From an uncultured Candidatus Saccharibacteria bacterium (GTDB taxonomy: Bacteria; Patescibacteriota; WWE3; 2-01-FULL-39-13), in NCBI GenBank assembly GCA_965230915.1, contig OZ246395.1, forward strand, positions 204,019-268,018: DNA of 64,000 bases, given 5' to 3'. Below, piece by piece: positions 28,492 to 60,542 of this stretch. Position numbers and translations under genes: made by a program. Within the stretch, counting starts at the first letter, position 1. Every line of letters begins with the position of its first letter. Below the pieces are notes generated by a model that worked only from the letters and a program-made list of their open reading frames with translations, made no database searches and was not told the origin of the DNA.

Positions 28492-28607
28492 TTTTTCACC
28501 CTAATCACAGACCTATAGTATTGCAATTTTCCTGGTTTTAATTTATAATTATGCCCGCTAATCTAAATTAGCAGCGGAAATTCTACTCACTATGAAGGAG
28601 AGAAAAG

Positions 28608-28988
28608 ATGATCGCCGTAGCACCAGGTATAGAGGTTGAGATGGATGGTTCTGTCGTCGACGAGGCGCCAGTTGTTGTTCGGTCGCCCTTTTCGATGGGC
28701 TACGTTGGGCATGCGACATGGAAGCCATTACGGAACTTTCTTCTTAATCGCGCCGACTTACCGTTCGAAAGGATCCTGGCCTTAGGCCGGCACCTCGGCA
28801 TTGCCGAAGGCGCACTATGGGCCGAAGGGATCAACTTGGGGATTCCCAAGAATCGTCGGTATCGTTTTGTTTCGAACTTTGTAACCGCCGTCATGGCTGA
28901 CGCCAAGCCTCCTGTTGGAGCCGATGGCAAACGGCCTAAGTACGACAAGTTCGCGACGTTGAAAAAGCTCAAGGCCGCAATCGCCTAG
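28608..28988 (+). CDS. Hypothetical protein (126 aa) encoded by a conspicuously GC-rich gene (~55% GC, high GC3), likely horizontally acquired.
   Basis: Strong SD GAAGGAGAG 7 nt upstream. Codon usage (GTC GTC GAC GAG GCG CCA...) is unlike neighbouring genes. Flanked upstream by tRNA-Thr and a near-palindrome CCGCTAATctaaATTAGCaGCGG (28555-28577). Confidence 0.6.
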   Translation: MIAVAPGIEVEMDGSVVDEAPVVVRSPFSMGYVGHATWKPLRNFLLNRADLPFERILALGRHLGIAEGALWAEGINLGIPKNRRYRFVSNFVTAVMADAKPPVGADGKRPKYDKFATLKKLKAAIA

Positions 28989-34141: not shown

Positions 34142-34615
34142 TTAACGTCCTGCCCGTATTAATTCTTCTATCCTCGGGCAAACCTCGTCCACGAACTTTT
34201 TCCAGAATTCAGATTGAGGGCGGTAATGTACTCCAACGACCATTGCTGTCGCAAATACTTTGCCCACATTGAATTGTCGCATTACTTGCTGAATTCCGTT
34301 GGCCACTTGCCAATCAGCTTCCTCGATAATGTCATCTAGCCATACCTGAATTAGCATAGCCACATCGGTTTGCAAACTATACCGACGAGCCACACATAGA
34401 ACCAGAGTTAAGCGGTCTCGGATCGACCATTGTGAGTCATCGGTAAGTAAGAGGCCTTCCAGCGTTCCGTCCCAATCATTTTTTGCCAGGGGTGTTGTAT
34501 CTCTAGGTGGGTGCAGCCCCAAGTAGTTCATGTGGGGGTCACTGGCTTCCAGCGCCTTTCCGGTAATTGGGCTAGGTACTACATCCCAGACAATCCCATA
34601 TCTCACATTAATCAT
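34142..34615 (-). CDS. Hypothetical protein (157 aa) encoded by a moderately GC-rich (~47%) gene.
   Basis: ORF with codon usage shifted toward GC; no recognised family. Confidence 0.55.
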   Translation of the reverse strand: MINVRYGIVWDVVPSPITGKALEASDPHMNYLGLHPPRDTTPLAKNDWDGTLEGLLLTDDSQWSIRDRLTLVLCVARRYSLQTDVAMLIQVWLDDIIEEADWQVANGIQQVMRQFNVGKVFATAMVVGVHYRPQSEFWKKFVDEVCPRIEELIRAGR

Positions 34616-38302: not shown

Positions 38303-38683
38303 ATGCCTCATTTGCAGATTTTGCCCACTCCGGAAAACATTGAGACCCTAAAGATGTTCTTCAAGGCTTTCCGAGAATTGAGCCTGCTCTTTGGGTTCAT
38401 ATGGTTTTTTGGTCATGGATTAGGCATAGCATACTATAAGGACTGTGGTAATAGCTTTTTTCGTAATATGATCCTGGTCATTTGGCATGCGGTAGCCGCC
38501 TTATTGGTATGGATCTCGGTGATTGTGATTCCATTAACAATCGAAGGTTCGTGGGTCAATAGTTATTTGAGCCTACGACCTAGCTTGTTTTTCGGCACTA
38601 TCATCACCGGTTATTGTCTTGGGCTCGTGGCCTATCTTCTAACCAGGCCTGAAGACCGCCGAGCAAGGAATTTTTCTACCTAA
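38303..38683 (+). CDS. Hypothetical integral membrane protein (126 aa, ~45% GC).
   Basis: Three hydrophobic helices. Preceded by a promoter-like TTCGCA-18-TATAAT and followed by a strong terminator. Confidence 0.5.
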   Translation: MPHLQILPTPENIETLKMFFKAFRELSLLFGFIWFFGHGLGIAYYKDCGNSFFRNMILVIWHAVAALLVWISVIVIPLTIEGSWVNSYLSLRPSLFFGTIITGYCLGLVAYLLTRPEDRRARNFST

Positions 38684-44370: not shown

Positions 44371-44676
44371 ATGCTTGCTGGAATTGCAGCGCCAAGTGTT
44401 CAAAGCTCAGAAGATTTTTTTCTGACGCTTATTCCCACCGATGGTGGTGAACATGTTATTGTTCGTACGATGGCACAGTTCAAAGAGCATTATCTTACGC
44501 GTGCTGATGGGGTTATGTATGCCATCAAAATTGACGAGCGGCAAATCAGCAGCTACGAAGCGCAGGTTTTGCTGCGGCAGTTTCAAACGTCACAGATTGC
44601 ATTTCAACCCCGACCAAACTGGGAAGATCTTTACTATGAGTGCCAGAGTGGTAGTTTCAGCTATCGGCCTTATTAG
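44371..44676 (+). CDS. Hypothetical soluble protein (101 aa) in a GC-richer patch, with a strong SD.
   Basis: AAAAAGGAGAAG 8 nt upstream of the ATG. Overlaps an alternative-frame ORF (44441-44917). Confidence 0.45.
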   Translation: MLAGIAAPSVQSSEDFFLTLIPTDGGEHVIVRTMAQFKEHYLTRADGVMYAIKIDERQISSYEAQVLLRQFQTSQIAFQPRPNWEDLYYECQSGSFSYRPY

Positions 44677-44917
44677 AAGGTTCGTCGGTTTATGGCGAAT
44701 CTGGCTAAGTTTGGCAATCGCTATATTTATATATCGGCCGTTGTATTTTTGGCTGATATCATGGGCTGACCCGAGTGTGCCAAATCTGATATGCGCGGTA
44801 TTGGTCGGCGCAGTGTCGTTCGGTCTTTTTGTTGTAGTTTTAACCGTGCTGTACGAAATTCGGGCAGCACAAGAATTTTCGGCTAAACACCGAAGACACC
44901 GTTTAGTCGAAGAATAG
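44636..44917 (+). CDS. Putative small membrane protein (93 aa), the C-terminal part of the track's 158-aa ORF starting at internal Met66. Overlaps the end of the previous gene by 41 nt.
   Basis: Two hydrophobic helices (LWRIWLSLAIAIFIY...; LICAVLVGAVSFGLFVVVLTVL). The upstream 65 codons of the 158-aa ORF overlap the better-supported 101-aa gene in another frame. Confidence 0.3.
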   Translation: MSARVVVSAIGLIRRFVGLWRIWLSLAIAIFIYRPLYFWLISWADPSVPNLICAVLVGAVSFGLFVVVLTVLYEIRAAQEFSAKHRRHRLVEE

Positions 44918-45027
44918 GACCGGAAAATGATTCCGCCTAGCAGGGCATCAGGGCTGATTTATTCAGCACTCCAAAAGAGTTAAAACCTGATGCCTTTTAT
45001 TTTGAATACAACTACGAAAGGGCTGCT

Positions 45028-45510
45028 ATGAGTACTTTAGGTAGACAATCGATGGTCGGAATCGTACGGCTGTCTTTGTACGGTATTTACCTGTGTGTGT
45101 GCCTCTGGCTTGTGATCAATCTATCTAGTTTTGGACTAAGTATTAGTGGCCCTTACAGGTGGGTATGCTTGCTGCTTAGCTTCACAGTTGTCTATGGGTT
45201 CATAAGGACTTTCTGGCGGGTAATTAACATTATCGGCAGTATTTCCGATTCGACCATGCTGTCGATCGGCGAAGTGATAGTTGTTTTGACTTTGACACTT
45301 GGTGCAATGGGGCTTTTTGTAGCAATCGCGCTCGAAATTTCCACATACTTTACGAAGTATGGAATTCCGACGACATACTTGATAGTTGGGGTTTGGGTCG
45401 TAGTATCTATTTGGATTTTGCCGTCAATTGTGCGTGCGGCGGTAAGGCGCTACGAAGAATGGTTCGGAACAAAAGTTCTCAGCTTTTTGCTTCATAGCTC
45501 TGGCCCTTAA
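45028..45510 (+). CDS. Hypothetical integral membrane protein (160 aa, 4 predicted TM helices), GC-richer.
   Basis: Hydropathy judged by eye; no motif. Confidence 0.5.
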   Translation: MSTLGRQSMVGIVRLSLYGIYLCVCLWLVINLSSFGLSISGPYRWVCLLLSFTVVYGFIRTFWRVINIIGSISDSTMLSIGEVIVVLTLTLGAMGLFVAIALEISTYFTKYGIPTTYLIVGVWVVVSIWILPSIVRAAVRRYEEWFGTKVLSFLLHSSGP

Positions 45511-47073: not shown

Positions 47074-47673
47074 GTGAACTGGTCAGATTATGCCAGCCTG
47101 GCAGACAGGCTATACAAGCAGTCGGGGTTTATTTATGTCGGAGCCGAGTTTTGCTGGGAATTACAGGATATATTCCTGTCACTTGTAGCAAGAACGCTCA
47201 GCGATGACAAAGAGATCAAAATCCTTATCAACAGCAGCGGGGGGAGCAGCATGTCTTGCATGGCAATGCGTAATAGCCTTCTTCTAGCTCGCATGAGGGA
47301 AAAGAAGTCAGTGGGAGTTGTTCTTTCGAGGGCTTATTCTGCGGCATTCCTTTTGCTTCAAAGTTGCGATACGCGCTTAGCTATGGAAGGGTCAACACTG
47401 TTGATGCACCATGGCAGCAGCCAGCTCGATAACAATGAGCTGGCCGCTATTAATCGTGGTGAATCATGGCCTGCGGAGCATCGCAAAAGGTTCAATGACG
47501 AACTGATCGAAGCTGTGCAAAGACGTACTGGCGTGACGAAGAAAAAGTTGTTCGAATATTTCGACACTGAGAGATATTTTTCCGCCGGGCAGTCGCTTGA
47601 TGAGAATTTCGTAGATGGGGTAGTTTCATCGTATACAGAAATTCCAGCCGAAGTTCTGACATTGTTGTCTTAA
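47074..47673 (+). CDS. ClpP/S14-like serine protease family protein (GTG start, GC-richer accessory gene).
   Basis: 'KILINSSGGS' compares with ClpP 'INSPGG', and 'RAYSAAFLLLQSCDTRLAMEGSTLLMHHG' compares with ClpP 'AASMGA.LLAAG..R..LPNSRIMIHQP'. Strong SD AAGAGGAG upstream. Confidence 0.55.
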   Translation: MNWSDYASLADRLYKQSGFIYVGAEFCWELQDIFLSLVARTLSDDKEIKILINSSGGSSMSCMAMRNSLLLARMREKKSVGVVLSRAYSAAFLLLQSCDTRLAMEGSTLLMHHGSSQLDNNELAAINRGESWPAEHRKRFNDELIEAVQRRTGVTKKKLFEYFDTERYFSAGQSLDENFVDGVVSSYTEIPAEVLTLLS

Positions 47674-47691
47674 TTTTGAAAGGCGGGGTAA

Positions 47692-48066
47692 ATGCTACTG
47701 ATGCTAAATGGCCCAGAAGTTATCGAGTTTCTGTCGATAATTGCAGGCCTGGATGTTGCACTGAGGATGACGGGATTTAATCCCACGGTCTCTGTGGTAA
47801 TGGCACTGCCTAAGATTAAGATGGAGGATTTTGATCGAAGGTGGGATCACTTTAGGGAATTTTGTGCCAAGAACGAATGTTCTTTGCAAGTTTTCATTTT
47901 CGGATCGCATACAGATCCAAACCAGAGTACGAGTCTCCGCTTTGGTGATTCCAGGTGTGACTATATTAACGTCTACATCTATACCGTGGGTTGGTTCGCT
48001 GATCGGCCACTAAGCGACTCGCTTCAGGCGATCGATCAATTCTTAGGTGGAATTTCGGAAGTTTAG
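47692..48066 (+). CDS. Hypothetical protein (124 aa), GC-richer.
   Basis: ORF only. Confidence 0.4.
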   Translation: MLLMLNGPEVIEFLSIIAGLDVALRMTGFNPTVSVVMALPKIKMEDFDRRWDHFREFCAKNECSLQVFIFGSHTDPNQSTSLRFGDSRCDYINVYIYTVGWFADRPLSDSLQAIDQFLGGISEV

Positions 48067-52894: not shown

Positions 52895-52928
52895 AATATA
52901 GTGGATTTATATCTTGCATTATAGACCA

Positions 52929-53273
52929 ATGTCAAGAAAATCGCTTGAGCTTGGAGTTTTCTTATTATGGGGTATAATATGGTATATGACTGTAAATTGG
53001 GGGGTCACTGAACAAGTTAATAATGAGACGCAAAATCCAGAAAATGGCTTGAATACTGAAGTTTCTCAGACTTCGGTAAGCGGATATGTGCCAGCCCCAA
53101 GACCTGTTATTGCAACTGTGCCTGATGAAAGAACCGTACCAAGCACAACAGAAATAGTGCAAGATATAACACCTAAAACTCCTATTGTAAGGACATCCGA
53201 AAACGTACACAGAGCTGCCTTATGGGCGGTTACACAATCTAATGCTCAAGCACAGAAACCCGAAGGTTTTTAA
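52929..53273 (+). CDS. Small membrane-anchored protein (about 114 aa from ATG 52929; the track's start at 52914 is a TTG).
   Basis: N-terminal TM 'LELGVFLLWGIIWYMTV' followed by a Pro/Thr-rich extracellular tail. Confidence 0.4.
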   Translation: MSRKSLELGVFLLWGIIWYMTVNWGVTEQVNNETQNPENGLNTEVSQTSVSGYVPAPRPVIATVPDERTVPSTTEIVQDITPKTPIVRTSENVHRAALWAVTQSNAQAQKPEGF

Positions 53274-53301: not shown

Positions 53302-55716
53302 ATGCCCGAACAAGTTGTAAATCCCGAAACCTTTTTTACTCAATCACTTCATCTTTTTCAAACTGTTTTAATATTTTCAGTCATCCTATTAGTCTTAATG
53401 GTTGTTATATATTATGGATTTAAAGCATATATTTGGCATGTTCGTTTTAAGAATCGAAAAAAATCTTTAGACGAAAAAGTTTTTCTAAAGATACAGATTC
53501 CCGAAGAAAATGAAATTGAGCCATCTATGTCGGAGCAGATGTATAGCAGCATGTACGGCATTCGCAAAAGCGGTTTTATGGAATCACTAAAGGAACACGA
53601 CCATATTTCATTTGAAATTGTCGCTAATAATGAATCAATCGATTTTTATGCGGTTTGTCCGAAAAATCTTGAGAATTTGGTTGAGAAACAAATTAATGCG
53701 GCTTATCCAGATGCAGAAATTACGAAAGTCGATCCATGGAGTTTATGGACTAACGATGGAACGGTTGAATTTTCAAGTTTGGTTTTGCGAAAACCAGATT
53801 ATTTTCCAATAAATACTTACGAAGAAATGAAGGTGGATTCGATCGCAGTTATAACTGCTGCAATGGGCAAGTTGCACGAAGGGGAAGGTCTGGCAATTCA
53901 AATGGTAATTAGGCCTGCCGAAGATATATGGCAAAAGAATGGAAAAGCCCATATTAAAAAATATTTTTCAGATAAAAATGGAAAAGATGGATCGAAAATG
54001 TCGAAAATAGACGAAGATTATATTCAAACGATTCAAAGCAAAATTTCCAAAATTGGATTTGAAACAGTTATTCGTTTGGTATCAGTTTCTAATGACGAAG
54101 CTTCGGCTAAGGCTAATTTAAGCAACTTAGAGCGAGCTTTTGGCCAATTTAACAGCCCCGTTTTTAATTCTCTTAAAAAAGCTCCTCAGCGATACGAAAA
54201 GTATTTTGTAATTTCATTTATCGCGAGAATGTTCCCGGTTGTTGAAAAGTTTGAGCTTCCATTTGAAATTCCATTTTTATTGAAAAAAGAATGGTTTAGA
54301 GGTTGGAGTATTTATAACACCGAAGAGCTTGCGACACTTTGGCATCTTCCAAATAAAAATGTAAAAACACCTCGAATTAATTGGTTGCGATCAAAAGGTT
54401 CAGCCGCGCCAATTGAATTGCCTGATTCGGGACTTTACCTTGGTAAATCAATATTTAGAGGAACCGAAGTGCCAATTTTTATGCAAGACGAAGATCGCCG
54501 TCGCCATATGTATATTTTAGGAACTACAGGTACAGGAAAATCGGAATTTATGAAATTTATGGCGATTCAGGATATTAAAGAAGGCAAGGGAGTTGCTTTT
54601 ATTGATCCACATGGATCAGCAGTTAATGATATTGTGCAGCAAATTCCACCAGAAAGAATTGATGATGTGATTTATTTTGACCCAAGCACCGAAAGACCGA
54701 TGGGGCTAAATATATTGGATGTAAAAACAGAAAAAGAAAAAGACATGGTTATCAATAAGTTTATTGAGATGTTGTACGAATTGTACGACCCAAATAAACA
54801 GGGTATTATGGGGCCTCAGCTCGAGCGTGCACTTCGTATGTGTATGTTGACCATTATGAGTAAACCCGGAGGTTCGTTAATCGAAGTCGTTCGTTTATTG
54901 GTCGACGAAAACTTTCACAAAGAGTACATGCCTTATATTAAAGACGATACAGTTCGTTTATATTGGACTGCTGAAGTTGCAAACACCACAAAAAATCGTA
55001 AAGGCGAAACCATGGGCTATTTTGTTTCAAAGCTCGACCGTTTTACAACCGAAAAAACCATGCGTTATATGTTGGGCCAGTCATATTCGTCCTTTGACTT
55101 TAACGATGTAATGAATAATCGCAAAATTTTATTAGCTGATTTATCAAAAGGTAAATTGGGTGCAGAAAATTCTAAATTTTTGGGATTAATGTTAGTTCCT
55201 CGTTTACTAGCCGCTGCATTTTCACGAATCGAAAAAATGGAGCGCGGAGAACATATAGAAGATTTTTACTTATATATTGATGAGTTCCAGAACTACACCA
55301 CTCCGGACATCGAAACAATTTTGTCTGAAGCGCGTAAATATCGCTTAAATTTAATTGTCGCAAATCAATTTATTGGACAACTGCCAGAAAAAATTAAAGA
55401 CGCCATATTTGGAAATGTCGGAAGCATGACTGTATTTCGCGTAGGTACAGATGATGCGCAATATTTAGAAAAGTATTTTGCTCCAACTTTTGGGCAAACA
55501 GATTTAATGAACAATAGAGTAGGGCGGGCTTACATGAAGTTGCTTGTTAACAACCAGCCATCGCCAGCTTTTGCGATGACCACCGATTGGGACATGATTT
55601 CCAGTATGCCGCGTGATTTTGCTTTAGGCCAGCAAATTAAAGAGCTAAGCCAGCAAAAATATGGAAGAAACCGCTTTATCGTCGAACAAGAGATAAAAGC
55701 TAGAGGTGGGATGTAG
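53302..55716 (+). CDS. Type-IV coupling protein-like P-loop ATPase (TraD/TraG/VirD4 family with a TraG-D_C-like C-terminus) and an N-terminal TM anchor.
   Basis: TM 'VLIFSVILLVLMVVIYYGF'. Walker A context 'RRHMYILGTTGTGKSEFMKFMAIQDIKEGKGVAFIDPHGSA' (T4CP-like 'GxTGSGKS...DPKGE'). Walker B 'LYIDEFQNY' followed by 'ARKYRLNLIVANQFIGQL...IFGNVGSMTVFRVGTDDAQYLEKYF' (TraG-D_C-like). Confidence 0.65.
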   Translation: MPEQVVNPETFFTQSLHLFQTVLIFSVILLVLMVVIYYGFKAYIWHVRFKNRKKSLDEKVFLKIQIPEENEIEPSMSEQMYSSMYGIRKSGFMESLKEHDHISFEIVANNESIDFYAVCPKNLENLVEKQINAAYPDAEITKVDPWSLWTNDGTVEFSSLVLRKPDYFPINTYEEMKVDSIAVITAAMGKLHEGEGLAIQMVIRPAEDIWQKNGKAHIKKYFSDKNGKDGSKMSKIDEDYIQTIQSKISKIGFETVIRLVSVSNDEASAKANLSNLERAFGQFNSPVFNSLKKAPQRYEKYFVISFIARMFPVVEKFELPFEIPFLLKKEWFRGWSIYNTEELATLWHLPNKNVKTPRINWLRSKGSAAPIELPDSGLYLGKSIFRGTEVPIFMQDEDRRRHMYILGTTGTGKSEFMKFMAIQDIKEGKGVAFIDPHGSAVNDIVQQIPPERIDDVIYFDPSTERPMGLNILDVKTEKEKDMVINKFIEMLYELYDPNKQGIMGPQLERALRMCMLTIMSKPGGSLIEVVRLLVDENFHKEYMPYIKDDTVRLYWTAEVANTTKNRKGETMGYFVSKLDRFTTEKTMRYMLGQSYSSFDFNDVMNNRKILLADLSKGKLGAENSKFLGLMLVPRLLAAAFSRIEKMERGEHIEDFYLYIDEFQNYTTPDIETILSEARKYRLNLIVANQFIGQLPEKIKDAIFGNVGSMTVFRVGTDDAQYLEKYFAPTFGQTDLMNNRVGRAYMKLLVNNQPSPAFAMTTDWDMISSMPRDFALGQQIKELSQQKYGRNRFIVEQEIKARGGM

Positions 55717-56071
55717 ACCAACTAGCAAACCCCATAGCCTTGACTTTTCACAGCACTTGATCTATTCTTATCCCCGGAATTTGGTTATTGGCCAATAGCC
55801 AAAACTTGTTTCACACCGGGCATTGCCCATTACCGTCTCGCCGGGGTGTGAGGAAAAAAGTCTCTCAACGACGAGAGAACAGAACAAATGGCCAAAAAAA
55901 GAACCAAAAGCAAAGCGAGAATAGCTTTTTGGTTCGTCTACAAATTATCAGGGAGGGATTGAGCAGAAATCTCAAAATTTTGTTCTCATTGCGAGAACTT
56001 AATGTATAAAAGATTTTAGCTCTTCCTCCCTGTTTCACTTTTATTAACCTCTTATTGCCTACCCTATAGTA

Positions 56072-56100
56072 TTGACAAAGTCTCTCTAAAATGTTACTAT
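56072..56100 (+). promoter_or_regulatory. Consensus-like sigma70 promoter TTGACA-17-TACTAT upstream of the small-secreted-protein gene cluster.
   Basis: -35 TTGACA at 56072-56077, 17-nt spacer, -10 TACTAT at 56095-56100; about 185 nt upstream of ATG 56284. Confidence 0.5.
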
Positions 56101-56283
56101 GACGCCATTATTGAGGTATTGCTCATGCAGCAGTTTTCTCAATTAATGCACATTTTTATAGGTGATTCTTTTGAATTACCATCTGGTTAAATTGTTCCGA
56201 CTATTTTGTTTCTCTTTATTTAAGGGGGTCAAGATTGTTGGAACAATTACACTTTATACACATTCAATGAAGGAGAGATCGAA

Positions 56284-56856
56284 ATGTTTGCAAAGTTGAA
56301 GGCAAAATCAGATTGGTTATTAGACCGAGTTCATGGTTTTTACTTTCCCTATGGAAGCGATTTCACTGATTGGCCGCGTTTGATTTTATCGGCTCTGGCC
56401 GTCTTGTTTGTCGCAGGCGTGCTTCTTCTGTGGGCAGTTTACAATATTGCCCTTATAAATCACGAAAACGCGGTTTACCCTGACCTCAGCGATGTTGTTG
56501 GATTTAAGCTCGAGGTATTTCGCACTGATGGAAGCAGCGCGGTAGTTACCGGGCCACACTCGACAACAGTCATTGTGCCGTGGAATTACACTGGCAGCAT
56601 TGAGGCTTTGCTTGAAAATGGCGCAGAATTCGTTGGTAGTTCGCCATCGGGGCAGCTTTATAAGTTTGGGCCAGAGGTTACACCAAAGGTTCAGATAGGG
56701 GATCATGTCACATTCATTTTCCCGGTGCCCGCTGATGCGGATGCAATTCAGTTGATCGTAGATCCGGAAACAGGCAGTTGGGACGGCAGCCCGTCGTCTT
56801 ACTATTTCTGCAAGCTATCCGAATTTTGCTTATATCCTCCGGGATTTGGCAAGTAA
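56284..56856 (+). CDS. Small membrane-anchored/secreted protein, paralog family member 1 (190 aa), with the C-terminal motif YYFC-x6-C.
   Basis: SD GAAGGAGAG upstream. TM 'LILSALAVLFVAGVLLLWAVYNIAL'. C-terminus '...SYYFCKLSEFCLYPPGFGK'. GC about 48%. Confidence 0.5.
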   Translation: MFAKLKAKSDWLLDRVHGFYFPYGSDFTDWPRLILSALAVLFVAGVLLLWAVYNIALINHENAVYPDLSDVVGFKLEVFRTDGSSAVVTGPHSTTVIVPWNYTGSIEALLENGAEFVGSSPSGQLYKFGPEVTPKVQIGDHVTFIFPVPADADAIQLIVDPETGSWDGSPSSYYFCKLSEFCLYPPGFGK

Positions 56857-56906
56857 TTGAAGTAACAACGCTTTCTTTTAAACTCCCACACGAAAGGTTT
56901 CGAACA

Positions 56907-57440
56907 ATGAAGAAGCTACTTATTCCGGGTTTGCTGGTTTTGATTTTTGCTCTCCTGTGGAGCGGGTTTGACCAAAACAGTATCACTGCCTCCTGGTTCC
57001 AGCGCGGCGAACCCGTGCCCGAGCAGGAGAGCTTGGAATCGCGCATTGCGATGGCCGAATCGCGCCTCGAGTACCTTGAGCAACAGGAAGCTCTTCGTAT
57101 CGAAAACGATCAGTTTATGTTCGTTTCAGATGCCGATGAGTTTTTGGCGCGCACCGGTCTTCTCTTCGAACAAGAGCCAGTCGCTGTAGACATGATGCGA
57201 ATCATTGATAGCAGCGGCAAAGAATCGGGAAGCGGTGCGACCTACAAGTTCTCAGAGTCGCCGGTATTGGTCGATGACAGTGGAAACAGATTTCCGCTCG
57301 ATATTCACAAGGGTGAAACGGCCCATTTGTTGGCGTATACTGAAGGCAATGTGACTCAACTCGCATACTATGCGTGCTATACAAACAGCGCCATGTGTTA
57401 TGTCGAGACCAAAGTTCTGCCGATAGCGATGAGCTATTAG
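56907..57440 (+). CDS. Small secreted protein, paralog family member 2 (177 aa from ATG 56907; the track ORF starts upstream at 56778 and overlaps the previous gene).
   Basis: SD AAAGG 8 nt upstream. Signal/TM 'MKKLLIPGLLVLIFALLWSG'. C-terminal 'GNRFPLDIHKGE...GNVTQLAYYACYTNSAMCYVE' aligns with member 3. Confidence 0.5.
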   Translation: MKKLLIPGLLVLIFALLWSGFDQNSITASWFQRGEPVPEQESLESRIAMAESRLEYLEQQEALRIENDQFMFVSDADEFLARTGLLFEQEPVAVDMMRIIDSSGKESGSGATYKFSESPVLVDDSGNRFPLDIHKGETAHLLAYTEGNVTQLAYYACYTNSAMCYVETKVLPIAMSY

Positions 57441-57466
57441 CGATGAGATGAAGTAACCAGATTTAA

Positions 57467-57546
57467 AAGGCGGTGGCCGAGAAACATGATTTTTGCTGAT
57501 CTTTAGCAATCCTCATCGTTTCTCGGTCCACCGCCTTATTTTTTTA
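57467..57546 (+). terminator. Large intrinsic terminator (about 19-bp stem with an internal hairpin) followed by a T-run.
   Basis: AAGGCGGTGGCCGAGAAAC (57467-57485) pairs with GTTTCTCGGtCCACCGCCTT (57518-57537), followed by ATTTTTTTAC. Confidence 0.55.
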
Positions 57547-57668
57547 CCCAAATTCCCTTACAATCTAAATATCCTATAACATGCTAAAATAATGCCCATC
57601 AAACTATCATGTGTTCGTTTGATTAGTCTTTTGTGTTTTAGAAAACAATAACGAAGGGGAGAGGCTCA

Positions 57669-58160
57669 ATGCGCAGAAAGAAATTAATTTTCGCACTGGC
57701 AATTAGCATCGCAGTAAATGCTTGTCTGGGGTTCCAATATTTCAACCATATATCTAGGATAAGCGAACTTACTGCCGCAACTAATAGTCTTACCAAGAAG
57801 GTTCTGGAGGCGAGTCAGCCGCCAGAATATTATCTTTTAGACAGTAGTGGGCTGATCGACACTGTCATTCAGTTGAACGGCGTGGGTCTGGGTATGTTTG
57901 GTCCAAACCGAATTTATCTCATGGATGATCCACCTACTGCTACGTTTTTGTCAGATGGAGAAACTTTTCCCTTTGATATTTCAGATGGAAATTTCATCAA
58001 CATCGTCCCCGTTTTTGGGCCAGACGGAAATGTTTTGCATCCGGCCTATTATGTATGCGATCGGATGAATTTCGAGACATGTACCTTCAACCCAGACAAG
58101 CTGAGGTTTTTGAGGCCCATCGACGGGATGCCGACGGCAACAAGACAATCAGGTGCGTAG
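57669..58160 (+). CDS. Small secreted protein, paralog family member 3 (163 aa).
   Basis: Signal peptide 'MRRKKLIFALAISIAVNACLG'. 'GETFPFDISDGN...GNVLHPAYYVCDRMNFETCTF' shares 'FP.DI..G...GNV...AYY.C......C' with member 2. Confidence 0.55.
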   Translation: MRRKKLIFALAISIAVNACLGFQYFNHISRISELTAATNSLTKKVLEASQPPEYYLLDSSGLIDTVIQLNGVGLGMFGPNRIYLMDDPPTATFLSDGETFPFDISDGNFINIVPVFGPDGNVLHPAYYVCDRMNFETCTFNPDKLRFLRPIDGMPTATRQSGA

Positions 58161-58328
58161 TTTGAAAAGGGCAGCCTAACTGAATTTTGCAGATTTTTTG
58201 CAAACCAGTTGGGCTCCCTAGTATTTTTGCCATCGGCAAAAAACTGGGAGTAAAACGAGCAACTTTTTATACTTTCGGGATTTGTAAATAATTGTTATCA
58301 TTTCTTCCAGCACTTCTGCGCTTTTTAT

Positions 58329-58417
58329 GGAAGGGTCGCATAGTTGGTCTAGTGCGGCGGTCTTGAAAACCGCTATATCGCAAGATATCGTGGGTTCGAA
58401 TCCCACCCCTTCCGCCA
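58329..58417 (+). tRNA. tRNA-Ser (anticodon UGA) with a long variable arm, CCA encoded.
   Basis: Acceptor GGAAGGG/CCCTTCC, anticodon stem GCGGT/ACCGC with loop CTTGAAA, 17-nt variable arm TATATCGCAAGATATCG, T-arm GTGGGTTCGAATCCCAC, then G-CCA. Confidence 0.85.
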
Positions 58418-58446: not shown

Positions 58447-58710
58447 ATGGATATTTTAATTATCATGCTTGTCACAATGTTTTTTGGAGGATTATTGCTC
58501 GTTTTATGGGGGCTTTGCCTTATTGTAGGTTTTGGATGGGCCATGTTTATTATTGGCTTAATTTCATTGACAGGCGGAACTCCAGAAAGTTTTGCAGAAG
58601 CACAAAGAGATTATCCCGGAGCTAAAACCTTAAAAGGTAAGTTATTAGGGCTTCTTTTAGTAATTTTAGGAATAACTTCGATGATTTATAGCCTCAATAT
58701 TCAACAGTAA
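58447..58710 (+). CDS. Small integral membrane protein (87 aa), starting at the internal ATG of the track ORF that overlaps the tRNA.
   Basis: Two hydrophobic helices (ILIIMLVTMFFGGLLLVLWGLCLIVGFGWAMFIIGLISL). The track start at 58327 lies inside tRNA-Ser and is therefore implausible. Confidence 0.4.
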   Translation: MDILIIMLVTMFFGGLLLVLWGLCLIVGFGWAMFIIGLISLTGGTPESFAEAQRDYPGAKTLKGKLLGLLLVILGITSMIYSLNIQQ

Positions 58711-58986
58711 AAAAGTGAGCCAACTAAACTGGGGTTTGGAAAATATCCAAATCAGTATAGCTGGCTCTTGGTAGGTGGCCGCGCATTATTTCTTGCCGGG
58801 GCAAGAACATGTGCAGTGCCGCTGCGTGCCGTTGCAGTGGTGTCCACTTTCGCAACTTGCACAAATGAATCCGTCGTCATCATTAAATCGACATATCCAA
58901 AACAGAATTATCAGCAACATGTCCGATCTCCTTTCTGAAGATTCGAGCAAAGTATAGTCTTTGAAAATTAGGTGTCAATTGTCGAA

Positions 58987-59745
58987 TTATTCGACCATTT
59001 GAAGGATTTTATTAATATCGCTTAGCTGTTTTTCCATATCTTTAAATTGTGCCTCATCGATATTTTCGGAATGTTTGCTTGGGTCAAAATTGTCATAGAC
59101 ATGAAGTTTTCGTAAAACGGCTTCGGCGTCTTCGTGGTTTTCTAAAACTCCCCGCTCTTTATACATTTCTAGTTCCAATAAACGACGTGTAGTGGATTTT
59201 AATGCATCTATTCCATTTAAGACCTCGAATTTTCGATCGGCTGCAAAGCTTGTTTTAACTTTTCCGGAAGAATTTATTGTAATTGTGTGTTTTTCAGCGA
59301 CATCATTTGGAGCAGGACGGGTTTCGTCATCATCTAAACCATCTTCTTCGTATAAATCTTCTTCGATATTCAAAAATCTTTTGACTTCAATTAAAACAAA
59401 TGGGTTATTAGCCTGATCGTATTTTCGTAAAGCGCTTATAACAACTTCGTCTTCAGAAGAAGCATCATTCAAATGATCAGCAATAGTACCCTGATCCCAG
59501 TCTTTGCCGGTTACAAAAATTCGTAAAGATCCATCTTCACGTCGAAGAGCTTCACAATTACTAAAATGATCAGAATGTGCGAATTCTTCAATATCATTTA
59601 ATAAGCTTGTAACTTCGGTTTTGCTTTTTTTAGGTGGAGTCGCCCTAGTCATATTGGAAACAAGCGATTGTACCGAGCTTGCAACATTCGATATATTGCC
59701 CTGAATAGGTTGTGAGGAAATTAGTGAGCTGACAGACGAACTCAT
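58987..59745 (-). CDS. Hypothetical protein (252 aa) with a Ser-rich N-terminus and an acidic middle.
   Basis: ORF only. Confidence 0.5.
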   Translation of the reverse strand: MSSSVSSLISSQPIQGNISNVASSVQSLVSNMTRATPPKKSKTEVTSLLNDIEEFAHSDHFSNCEALRREDGSLRIFVTGKDWDQGTIADHLNDASSEDEVVISALRKYDQANNPFVLIEVKRFLNIEEDLYEEDGLDDDETRPAPNDVAEKHTITINSSGKVKTSFAADRKFEVLNGIDALKSTTRRLLELEMYKERGVLENHEDAEAVLRKLHVYDNFDPSKHSENIDEAQFKDMEKQLSDINKILQMVE

Positions 59746-59819
59746 GTACTAAATTTTAAATTGTTAACGTTAGTTTGCAAATGCTTGATTTATCCTTTGT
59801 TTAAGCTGATAATTTGCAT

Positions 59820-60542
59820 ATGCAAACAAATAAATCTTTTTCAGTTTCTGAGGCACTTAGATCGGGGTGGGAGATGTTTAAAAAGAATCCATTATTTTGG
59901 ATGGGCGTTACAGGTGTAGTAATGTTCTTCTCTTTTTTATCAGCTTCTCCAAGCTTTGTGTATCAAATGTCAGTAGGGGATTTTGAGGCAGAGATACCTC
60001 CACTTATTAATATATTGGGCTTTTTACTCTCTTTTGTATCATTGGGTATTCAGCTAGGACTGTTAGTTTTATTGATTAACGCACATCGGGGAAGAGAGCA
60101 AAATTTTTCTATTTTATTCAGTAAATTTCAGATTGTCCCACTTATAAAATTCTGGGTAGCATCTTTACTGTATGGCCTAATGGTTGTAATCGGAGTTTTA
60201 TTACTAATTGTTCCAGGAATTTACTTTGGAATTAAGTATCAATATTTCGCATATTTTATAGCGGAAAAGGACGCTGGAATTATAGAATCATTCAAGTTAA
60301 GTGGAGATTTAACTAAGGGCATAAAATCTTCACTATTTGGATTAGCAATTGTTTCAATATTAATTGCATTAGTAGGGGCCTTTATAAGCTTTGGACTAGC
60401 ACTTTTTATAATAGGACCAATAATAAACTTAGCGACTACTTATGTCTATTGTAAATTCAGCGGGTCAAATGAAGCATCGCCTGCTTCAGAAATGCCAAGA
60501 ATGGCACAATCACCAATGGCTGAAGCACAACCTTTAGCATAA
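59820..60542 (+). CDS. Integral membrane protein, DUF975-like (about 240 aa).
   Basis: N-terminal 'SVSEALRSGWEMFKKNPLFWMGV' followed by multiple TM helices. The track start at 59814 is a TTG, with an ATG two codons later. Confidence 0.5.
   Translation: MQTNKSFSVSEALRSGWEMFKKNPLFWMGVTGVVMFFSFLSASPSFVYQMSVGDFEAEIPPLINILGFLLSFVSLGIQLGLLVLLINAHRGREQNFSILFSKFQIVPLIKFWVASLLYGLMVVIGVLLLIVPGIYFGIKYQYFAYFIAEKDAGIIESFKLSGDLTKGIKSSLFGLAIVSILIALVGAFISFGLALFIIGPIINLATTYVYCKFSGSNEASPASEMPRMAQSPMAEAQPLA

What the first reader, a model, noticed from the sequence alone, without database searches (positions are those of the whole stretch)
56284..58160. Three paralogous small secreted/membrane-anchored proteins with a conserved C-terminal YY(F/A/V)C-x5-7-C motif, driven by a strong promoter next to the T4CP-like gene
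The proteins are 190, 177 and 163 aa. All have N-terminal signal or TM anchors. Members 2 and 3 align over 'G..FP.DI..G...GNV...AYY.C......C', and member 1 retains 'YYFC-x6-C'. They sit in a GC-rich patch with a strong promoter and terminators, between a T4CP-like ATPase and tRNA-Ser. They may be a family of disulfide-stabilised secreted effectors, adhesins or bacteriocin-like proteins.
Basis: seen in the sequence. Interest (0 to 1): 0.65.

Follow-up and report, generated by a model that had tools for sequence, protein, structure and literature searches.

The report
Orphan disulfide-loop surface proteins, accessory islet
Three real neighbouring genes in a tiny WWE3-like (candidate phyla radiation) bacterial genome encode fast-evolving, membrane-anchored outward-facing proteins of a very rare family, and they sit in a lineage-specific inserted islet, so their position next to the secretion-type ATPase gene is an accident of location, not a functional link.

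Summary
The three ORFs (190, 177 and 163 aa) are real. All carry one N-terminal hydrophobic anchor and a C-terminal YY-x-C-x5-7-C motif. Members 2 and 3 are clearly homologous (z 8.3 against shuffles). Member 1 is only marginal by alignment, but the motif (chance about 1e-5), its architecture and a positional orthologue support it.

An exhaustive profile search of 1.84 billion cluster representatives (about 15 billion proteins) found two further members. A third lies beside one of them. That gives six proteins in three genomes, with no Pfam, NCBIfam, PHROG, PADLOC, PDB or viral-fold match.

Six relatives keep the order CtpA-HtrA-RF1-L31-EamA-ABC-T4CP-tRNA-Ser, with only 28-407 bp between the T4CP-like gene and the tRNA. 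The 2.6-kb segment 55717-58328 is therefore an accessory islet. It is one of several GC3-rich (0.46-0.60 versus 0.19-0.36) islets of small, mostly orphan genes in this genome.

The genes form two self-contained units: promoter, conserved leader hairpin, m1-m2, strong terminator; then an extended -10 promoter, m3, terminator.

Most likely they are variable cell-surface proteins with a disulfide-closed tip loop. Function is inferred, not shown. The T4CP, bacteriocin and pilin readings failed their tests. Interest is modest.

The parts
55717..58328 (.). Accessory islet as a whole, between the stop of the T4CP-like gene (53302-55716) and tRNA-Ser(tga) (58329-58417).
   Evidence: In L002, L003, L004, L005, L008 and L009 the same two flanks are 28-407 bp apart. 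Islet GC is 43.9% versus 39.0% for the window. The Logan contig L001 is identical to window 55613-58417.
56072..56100 (+). Promoter P1: TTGACA, 17 nt, TACTAT, with TG before the -10 hexamer.
   Evidence: It matches 10 of 12 consensus positions plus TG. The extended -35 context CCTATAGTATTGAC is identical upstream of P0005 in L010/L013, and nearly so at window 28512. Activity is inferred.
56190..56248 (+). Conserved hairpin in the m1 leader RNA.
   Evidence: RNAalifold on window versus L012 gives 21 pairs, 4 of them with compensatory double changes, 6 with one-sided changes and 0 broken. The leader 56101-56290 folds with z -4.9. Only two sequences were available.
56284..56856 (+). m1: 190 aa, a 28-residue cytoplasmic N-terminus, a TM anchor at about residues 29-60, a beta-rich ectodomain, and YYFC-x5-C eight residues from the end.
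   Evidence: AAGGAG lies at 56270-75. The positional orthologue P0009 in L012 shares the N-terminus MF.K[LI] and the leader.
56907..57440 (+). m2: 177 aa, an N-terminal signal or anchor, a coiled-coil-like stalk, a beta domain, and AYYACYTNSAMC.
   Evidence: The orthologue P0005 is 29% identical over 140 aa (E 2e-12) and shares LAYY[AV]CYTNSA.
57467..57546 (+). Terminator T1: a long G+C-rich stem followed by a U-run.
   Evidence: dG is -46.4 kcal/mol and z -8.4, with 0 of 200 shuffles folding as well. The stem is conserved after P0009 in L012; that spacer is 75% identical, z 20.7. It shares GGCGGTGGC with the hairpin after P0005 in L013.
57582..57590 (+). Promoter P2 of m3: extended -10 element TGCTAAAAT.
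   Evidence: It is conserved as TGCTAGAAT in L012 within the aligned spacer. The consensus scan did not find it. Its role is inferred.
57669..58160 (+). m3: 163 aa, an N-terminal anchor or signal (VNAC lipobox-like at residues 16-19), a helix to about residue 49, a six-stranded beta domain, and AYYVC-x7-C.
   Evidence: The AlphaFold2 model has pLDDT 72.5. The orthologue P0006 in L012 is 34% identical (E 5e-14).
58168..58245 (+). Terminator-like region T2: a hairpin at 58168-58219 followed by UAUUUUU, then a second hairpin.
   Evidence: The fold has z -5.3, with 0 of 200 shuffles folding as well. The spacer between m3 and the tRNA is 70% identical to L012, z 14.3.

Best explanation
The three genes encode a very rare, lineage-restricted family of bitopic surface proteins in WWE3/Katanobacteria-like bacteria.

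Protein plan: an N-terminal hydrophobic anchor or signal (N-in, C-out), a helical stalk, and an all-beta ectodomain of about 90 residues. The ectodomain ends in an aromatic-aromatic-x-Cys, 5-10 residues, Cys loop that is most likely closed by a disulfide.

Gene organisation: they lie in a 2.6-kb accessory islet inserted between two core features, a stand-alone VirD4-like ATPase gene and tRNA-Ser. They are expressed from two self-contained units:
- P1, conserved leader hairpin, m1-m2, terminator T1.
- P2, m3, terminator T2.

The islet is one of several GC3-rich islets of small, mostly orphan genes that this genome carries between conserved core genes, so a horizontal origin is likely.

The proteins change about eight times faster than a housekeeping neighbour, while their promoters, leader and terminators stay recognisable.

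Inferred function: displayed, variable binding or masking proteins of the cell surface, used in contact with a host cell or against phage, with the disulfide-closed loop as the variable tip.

Shown: the genes, the family, the hydropathy-based topology prediction, islet status, operon structure and fast divergence. Inferred: the disulfide, surface exposure, horizontal origin and function.
For: Family:
- m2-m3 z 8.3.
- A profile of m2+m3 searched against 1.84e9 representatives finds only P0005 and P0006 as convincing extra members.
- P0009, beside P0006, has YMVC-x5-C.
- The core profile scores m1 and P0009 above 99.2% and 99.8% of shuffles.
- Motif chance is about 1e-5.

Topology: one hydrophobic segment, positive N-termini, acidic ectodomains and exactly two ectodomain cysteines in all six proteins. 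The model shows a long N-terminal helix followed by six strands, pLDDT 72.5.

Islet:
- Relatives have the T4CP-like gene and tRNA-Ser 28-407 bp apart.
- CtpA-HtrA-RF1-L31-EamA-ABC-T4CP synteny is kept, while every GC3-high ORF is missing.
- GC3 is 0.46-0.59 versus 0.19-0.36 for core genes.

Same locus in another genome: L012 carries P0009, a terminator, P0006, tRNA-Ser and then RarA (86% identical).

Units.

Rate: dN is 0.70-0.94 for the family versus 0.09 for RarA. Three near-identical strains of P0005 differ only at S137G and V141F, in or next to the Cys loop.

Stand-alone T4CP homologues are common in Patescibacteria: 5,713 homologues, of which only 148 lie near virB4 (PMC12102498).
Against: - There is no experimental or omics evidence of expression, export or a disulfide.
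- No signal-peptide predictor was available, so cleavage versus anchoring is open.
- The m3 model is only moderately confident and the m1 model is poor (pLDDT 58). No fold match was found.
- Synonymous sites are saturated even in RarA (dS 1.8), so positive selection cannot be separated from relaxed constraint.
- Horizontal origin rests on composition and patchy presence only. No integrase, att repeat or donor was found.
- The orthologues in L012 and L013 keep high GC3 despite deep divergence. A single old transfer does not explain this.
Confidence: 0.55

Rival explanations
1. Mobile-element or phage-derived 'moron-like' cargo. The cassettes were brought in by a phage or other element of these bacteria and act as superinfection-exclusion or receptor-masking membrane proteins.
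For: - Each unit has its own promoter and terminator, and composition unlike the host's.
- The islet lies beside a tRNA gene and has a patchy distribution.
- An m2-type gene with a similar promoter and terminator stands alone at another locus in L013.
- A neighbouring GC3-rich islet holds a ClpP-like gene with a weak phage match (E 7e-5).
Against: - No integrase, phage or conjugation gene lies in or next to the islet, and there are no flanking direct repeats.
- No PHROG, PADLOC, phage or plasmid hit, and no IMG/VR hit by pattern.
- The islet lies on the 5' side of the tRNA gene.
- It is old enough for orthologues to be only 26-34% identical.
Confidence: 0.2
2. Secreted antibacterial peptides or bacteriocin-like proteins, possibly with m1 as the immunity or anchor partner.
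For: They are small exported proteins with a conserved Cys pair and a GNV...YY.C stretch that superficially recalls the YGNGV-x-C-x4-C box. There are several variable paralogues, and an ABC transporter lies within 4 kb.
Against: - No pediocin box and no double-glycine leader.
- The motif is C-terminal, in 140-190 aa proteins that keep a hydrophobic anchor.
- The ABC system is of the ABC-2 / ABC_transp_aux type, without a peptidase domain, and is conserved in relatives that lack the genes.
- No hit to any bacteriocin family in Pfam or NCBIfam.
Confidence: 0.08
3. Accessory parts or substrates of a type IV secretion-like machine working with the adjacent T4CP-like ATPase.
For: The genes lie immediately downstream of a VirD4/TraG-like gene on the same strand. 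T4SS loci often hold small bitopic proteins (general knowledge).
Against: - The T4CP-like gene is conserved without these genes in six relatives.
- There is 567 bp of spacer, and the genes have their own promoter.
- No VirB4, VirB6 or VirB8 family was found in the scanned ORFs of the window.
- The m2-type gene in L013 has no T4CP nearby.
- An N-terminal Sec-type anchor does not fit a T4CP substrate.
Confidence: 0.05
4. Divergent pilin-like subunits: an N-terminal hydrophobic helix, a beta sheet and a C-terminal disulfide loop, as in type IV pilins.
For: The overall plan is the same in the model and in the sequences.
Against: - No class III signal is present: no G-1 and no E+5, even with a relaxed pattern.
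- No pilin family hit, and no pilin among PDB fold hits.
- m1 and P0009 have long cytoplasmic N-termini without a cleavage motif.
- No pilus genes lie nearby.
Confidence: 0.04
5. Chance ORFs in a GC-rich stretch that are not genes.
For: High GC3 lengthens spurious ORFs; several antisense ORFs of 85-110 aa overlap the region.
Against: Orthologues in two other genomes keep the architecture, the motif and the start. Ribosome-binding sites, promoters and terminators are in place. The m2-m3 similarity has z 8.3.
Confidence: 0.02

Closest known systems
Type IV pilins (for example the disulfide-bonded D-region of Pseudomonas PilA; from general knowledge)
   Same: An N-terminal hydrophobic helix continues into a long helix, followed by a small antiparallel beta domain and a C-terminal Cys-Cys loop that varies between relatives.
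   Different: There is no prepilin (class III) signal, no Glu5, no pilin family hit and no pilus genes nearby. This is a resemblance of plan only, not membership.
Phage 'morons' and lysogenic-conversion membrane or lipoproteins (concept from the phage literature; from general knowledge)
   Same: A short autonomous unit with its own promoter and intrinsic terminator, composition unlike its surroundings, a small envelope protein as product, and patchy presence.
   Different: It is not inside a recognisable prophage. It has no phage homologues and has been kept long enough for orthologues to diverge to about 30% identity.
PPC (bacterial pre-peptidase C-terminal, PF04151) beta-sandwich domains
   Same: The m2+m3 profile weakly hits PPC-type repeats in two large proteins over the motif D.F.F....G..I.I.
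   Different: No Pfam PPC hit for any member. Profile-profile comparison aligns only 18 columns with P 0.09. The library E-values were inflated by tandem repeats.
Stand-alone VirD4-like T4CP homologues of Patescibacteria (PMC12102498). This concerns the neighbouring gene, not the family.
   Same: The neighbour has DUF87, TraG-D_C and TrwB domains above Pfam cut-offs. It is chromosomal, conserved, and away from any virB4, as the paper reports for most of 5,713 homologues.
   Different: It has no demonstrated relation to the three small proteins.

Membership tests
Type IV pilin / pseudopilin | Class III signal peptide: Gly at -1, hydrophobic N-methylated residue at +1, Glu at +5. | tested here: not met
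   Neither the PROSITE-like pattern nor a relaxed pattern matched any of the six proteins.
Type IV pilin / pseudopilin | Match to pilin or N-methylation family models. | tested here: not met
   No Pfam or NCBIfam family at E up to 0.1.
Type IV pilin / pseudopilin | Long N-terminal helix packed on a beta sheet, with a C-terminal disulfide loop. | tested here: inconclusive
   The secondary-structure order fits, but the model is of moderate confidence and no pilin structure was among the PDB matches.
Class IIa (pediocin-like) bacteriocins | YGNGV-x-C-x4-C box near the N-terminus of a mature peptide shorter than 60 aa, and a double-glycine leader. | tested here: not met
   Patterns are absent. The proteins are 142-190 aa and the motif is C-terminal.
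Class IIa (pediocin-like) bacteriocins | A dedicated ABC exporter with a C39 peptidase domain, and an immunity gene in the locus. | tested here: not met
   The nearby ABC genes are of the ABC-2 / ABC_transp_aux type and are conserved in relatives without the family.
Type IV secretion system component or T4CP-dependent substrate | Co-inheritance with the T4CP or T4SS genes. | tested here: not met
   Six relatives keep the T4CP-like gene without the family. The L013 member has no T4CP within 10 kb downstream.
Type IV secretion system component or T4CP-dependent substrate | VirB4 and other T4SS genes within about 20 genes. | tested here: not met
   None was found among the window ORFs scanned against Pfam. 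The three giant ORFs and the ribosomal-protein cluster were not scanned.
PPC domain (PF04151) | A significant match to the family profile. | tested here: not met
   No Pfam hit. hhalign against PPC repeats of P0004 and P0008 gave P 0.09 over 18 columns.
Bacterial lipoproteins | A lipobox [LVI][ASTVI][GAS]C at the end of the signal peptide, conserved in the family. | tested here: not met
   Only m3 has VNAC at residues 16-19. Its orthologue P0006 and the other four members have none.
Phage moron | Own promoter and terminator, and nucleotide composition unlike the neighbours. | tested here: met
   (units). (composition).
Phage moron | Located within a prophage or phage genome. | tested here: not met
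   The flanks are core genes. There are no PHROG or phage hits.
Diversity-generating retroelement target | A template repeat near-identical to the variable region, and a reverse transcriptase nearby. | tested here: not met
   No second copy of any islet segment exists in the 64-kb window. The rest of the genome could not be examined.

The most novel reading that the evidence does not exclude
The islet is one instance of a CPR-specific 'cassette frame': conserved regulatory DNA (promoter with the CCTATAGTATTGAC context, structured leader, long-stem terminators) inside which GC3-rich coding sequences for surface proteins are replaced or diversified. Together with the other GC3-rich islets of small, mostly orphan genes, it would form an exchangeable surface repertoire that sets host or phage specificity in these ultra-small episymbionts.
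Probability: 0.12. Interest if true: 0.6.

Novelty: new variant of a known kind. Interest (0 to 1): 0.3.

Why it matters
Candidate phyla radiation bacteria are thought to live attached to other cells, yet few of their surface proteins are understood. This locus gives a concrete, testable example. It is a tiny family with a conserved disulfide-loop tip, carried in a variable islet between core genes, with conserved regulatory elements. If such GC3-rich islets hold the strain-specific surface repertoire, they would be the first places to look for host-range or phage-resistance determinants in these organisms. On present evidence it is a well-delimited orphan family, not a new mechanism.

Tried and rejected
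- **Single-sequence search with m3:** only a self hit.
- **Six-member profile, word-seeded search of 5.8e9 clusters:** it returned only known members.
- **Other hits of the exhaustive search** (P0003, P0004, P0007, P0008): these are tandem-repeat proteins (ubiquitin-like or PPC-like). I judged them false or only motif-level matches.
- **Family searches:** Pfam, NCBIfam, PHROGs, PADLOC and a PDB sequence profile gave nothing.
- **Scans with the m2+P0005 alignment:** no relatives in JGI metagenomes or IMG/VR.
- **Scan for the 19-mer of the tRNA-Ser promoter shared with L012:** 42 chance loci and no family member.
- **Flanking repeats:** no att-like direct repeats or partial tRNA copy at the islet ends. 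No degraded fourth copy in the spacers. No internal template repeat.
- **Phage and plasmid collections:** no match.
- **Sample accessions:** not found in the literature library.
- **A dN/dS argument for positive selection:** dropped, because dS is saturated even for RarA.
- **Promoter homology between the window and L013:** an early idea that the shared 14-mer proves it, now weakened. A near-identical motif precedes an unrelated gene at 28512, so it may be a lineage promoter consensus.
Full report
**What is there**

The window is low in G+C (39%). Relatives of its genes come from MAGs labelled candidate division WWE3, Patescibacteria or Saccharibacteria. The proteins are on record from a 945-kb NCBI contig.

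The three ORFs are as described:
- m1, 56284-56856, 190 aa.
- m2, 56907-57440, 177 aa. The ATG start is supported by an independent gene call and by the aligned N-terminus of its orthologue.
- m3, 57669-58160, 163 aa.

Each has one N-terminal hydrophobic segment, a positively charged N-terminus, an acidic remainder and exactly two cysteines outside the anchor.

**Are they a family?**

- m2 and m3 are homologous: BLASTP E 2e-5; Smith-Waterman z 8.3, 0 of 2000 shuffles.
- m1 is not detectably similar to m2 (z 0.5) and only weakly to m3 (z 2.0).
- A profile of the four clear members scores m1 above 4961 of 5000 shuffles, and its counterpart P0009 above 4989 of 5000.
- The motif YY.C.{5,7}C arises in about 1 in 100,000 random proteins of this composition. 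Cysteine makes up 0.43% of residues in ten long ORFs of the window, and the motif (as YY.C.{4,9}C) occurs in no other six-frame ORF of the window.

I accept m1 as a distant member. This rests on the motif, the shared architecture and its position, not on alignment alone. m1 has C-x5-C, not x6.

**How rare is it?**

- An exhaustive HMMER search of 1.84 billion representatives with the m2+m3 profile gave two convincing extra members. P0005 (153 aa) carries LAYYVCYTNSAHC. P0006 (142 aa) carries GYYVC-x10-C.
- The other four hits are tandem-repeat proteins.
- Next to P0006 lies P0009 (175 aa, YMVC-x5-C).
- A six-member profile searched against 5.8 billion clusters returned only members already known.
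- There is no match in Pfam, NCBIfam, PHROGs, PADLOC, PDB sequences, phage or plasmid records, IMG/VR or JGI metagenomes.

**The surroundings decide the interpretation**

- Six relatives carry the T4CP-like gene at 73-80% identity. In these, tRNA-Ser(tga) follows it after 28, 46, 62, 84, 207 or 407 bp, against 2612 bp here.
- At the protein level the order CtpA-HtrA-RF1-L31-EamA-ABC permease-ABC ATPase-T4CP is kept in four relatives (a fifth, L005, keeps RF1 to T4CP), but m1-m3 are absent.
- So the segment 55717-58328 is an accessory islet, and the T4CP-like gene is a core, stand-alone gene.
- No other T4SS family was found in the ORFs I scanned.
- This matches a survey of Patescibacteria in which only 148 of 5,713 VirD4-like homologues lie near virB4 (PMC12102498).

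**The same locus elsewhere**

- Contig L012 holds P0009, a terminator, P0006 and tRNA-Ser(tga). It then holds a 253-aa gene on the other strand, a 258-aa membrane protein and RarA. This is the window's order without m2.
- RarA is 86% identical between the two, m3/P0006 only 34%, and m1/P0009 is not detectable by BLASTP.
- The non-coding parts align well: leader 65% (z 7.5), terminator plus m3 promoter 75% (z 20.7), and the m3-tRNA spacer 70% (z 14.3). The coding parts do not align at the DNA level.
- dN is 0.70-0.94 for the family against 0.09 for RarA. dS is saturated for all genes, so positive selection cannot be claimed.
- The m2-type gene P0005 stands alone at a different locus, beside PIG-L, LemA, M48 and GatCAB genes. 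It has the same CCTATAGTATTGAC promoter context and a long-stem terminator starting GGCGGTGGC.
- Three near-identical strain variants of P0005 differ only at S137G and V141F, in or beside the Cys loop.

**Expression signals**

- P1 is TTGACA-17-TACTAT with TG, at 56072-56100.
- The 184-nt leader is strongly structured (z -4.9).
- Its hairpin at 56190-56248 is kept in L012, with four compensatory pair changes and none broken. Only two sequences were available.
- T1 after m2 is a very stable terminator (dG -46 kcal/mol, z -8.4).
- m3 therefore needs its own promoter. A conserved extended -10 element lies at 57582-57590.
- A terminator-like hairpin with a U-run follows m3.

**Composition**

- The islet's coding sequences have GC 0.45-0.51 and GC3 0.46-0.59. 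Core genes have GC3 0.19-0.36, with ribosomal-protein genes lowest. The spacers have GC 0.37-0.38, like other non-coding DNA.
- Seven further loci of small ORFs in the window share the high GC3.
- Those at 44.4-45.5 kb and 47.1-48.1 kb lie between HtrA and RF1 and between L31 and EamA. In relatives these gene pairs are directly adjacent.
- The three genes thus belong to a wider set of GC3-rich accessory islets. Horizontal origin is the simplest reading, but no donor, integrase or att site was found.
- The orthologues in L012 and L013 also keep high GC3. This remains unexplained.

**Structure**

- AlphaFold2 with the six-sequence alignment gives m3 a helix over residues 2-49 and six strands over 53-130 (pLDDT 72.5, pTM 0.52).
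- The m1 model is poor (pLDDT 58), but again shows a TM helix followed by strands.
- The weak link to PPC domains did not survive a profile-profile test (P 0.09 over 18 columns).
- Pilin, sortase, Tat, double-glycine and pediocin signatures are absent.

**Verdict**

The family is real, very rare and extracytoplasmic by hydropathy prediction. The proposed tie to the T4CP-like gene or to an ABC exporter is not supported.

The best-supported account is an accessory islet encoding fast-evolving, membrane-anchored surface proteins with a disulfide-closed C-terminal loop. They are expressed from two autonomous units. Their role, in host contact or phage interplay, is inferred. The main rival is a mobile-element-derived cargo of the moron type.

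Noticed in passing
window 44371-45510 and 47074-48066: Two further GC3-rich islets (GC3 0.48-0.52). They hold small orphan ORFs, one multi-TM protein and a ClpP-like protein (PF00574, E 7e-13). They sit between HtrA and RF1 and between L31 and EamA, gene pairs that are directly adjacent in relatives L003, L004, L008 and L009.
   Followed up: partly
window 28512-28988: A 126-aa orphan ORF has the highest GC3 in the window (0.60). It lies right after two tRNA-Thr genes and is preceded by CCTATAGTATTGCA, nearly the same extended -35 context as the m1 promoter and the P0005 promoter in L013.
   Followed up: partly
window 34142-34615 (-) and 38303-38683 (+): Two more small ORFs with GC3 0.46 and 0.51 and no Pfam family. 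Their presence in relatives was not checked.
   Followed up: no
window 55855-55936, minus strand: Two tandem terminator-like hairpins, each followed by a U-run, read on the minus strand inside the 567-bp spacer after the T4CP-like gene. There is no obvious minus-strand gene for them to terminate. An unannotated small RNA or a relic are both possible.
   Followed up: partly
window 58447-60542 and L012 1677-3309: The genes just downstream of tRNA-Ser also evolve fast. The 252-aa minus-strand protein is 25% identical and the 242-aa membrane protein 35% identical between the window and L012, against 86% for the next gene, RarA. An 87-aa membrane ORF at 58447-58710 has no counterpart in L012.
   Followed up: partly
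window 53302-55716: The VirD4/TraG-like ATPase (804 aa, N-terminal TM region, P-loop domain from about residue 380) is a conserved stand-alone chromosomal gene. No other T4SS family was found in the scanned neighbours. Its first 370 residues or so match no family.
   Followed up: partly
window 107-21113: Three consecutive giant ORFs of 3414, 1779 and 1740 aa on the plus strand, with GC2 near 0.5 and low GC3. They were not analysed.
   Followed up: no
L002 4263-4968: A WWE3 relative has two copies of tRNA-Ser(tga) about 530 bp apart, directly after its T4CP-like gene. This suggests past rearrangement or insertion at the same site.
   Followed up: no
L001, L010, L013: Assembly breaks coincide with these loci. 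The Logan contig L001 spans window 55613-58417 and ends exactly at the tRNA 3' end. Two independent ENA assemblies (L010, L013) end 343 bp upstream of the P0005 gene, and a third (L011) 118 bp upstream. This may reflect strain heterogeneity around the cassettes.
   Followed up: no
window 52914-53273: A 119-aa ORF between the ABC ATPase gene and the T4CP-like gene has no Pfam family and no tblastn match in any relative, although both flanking genes are conserved.
   Followed up: no
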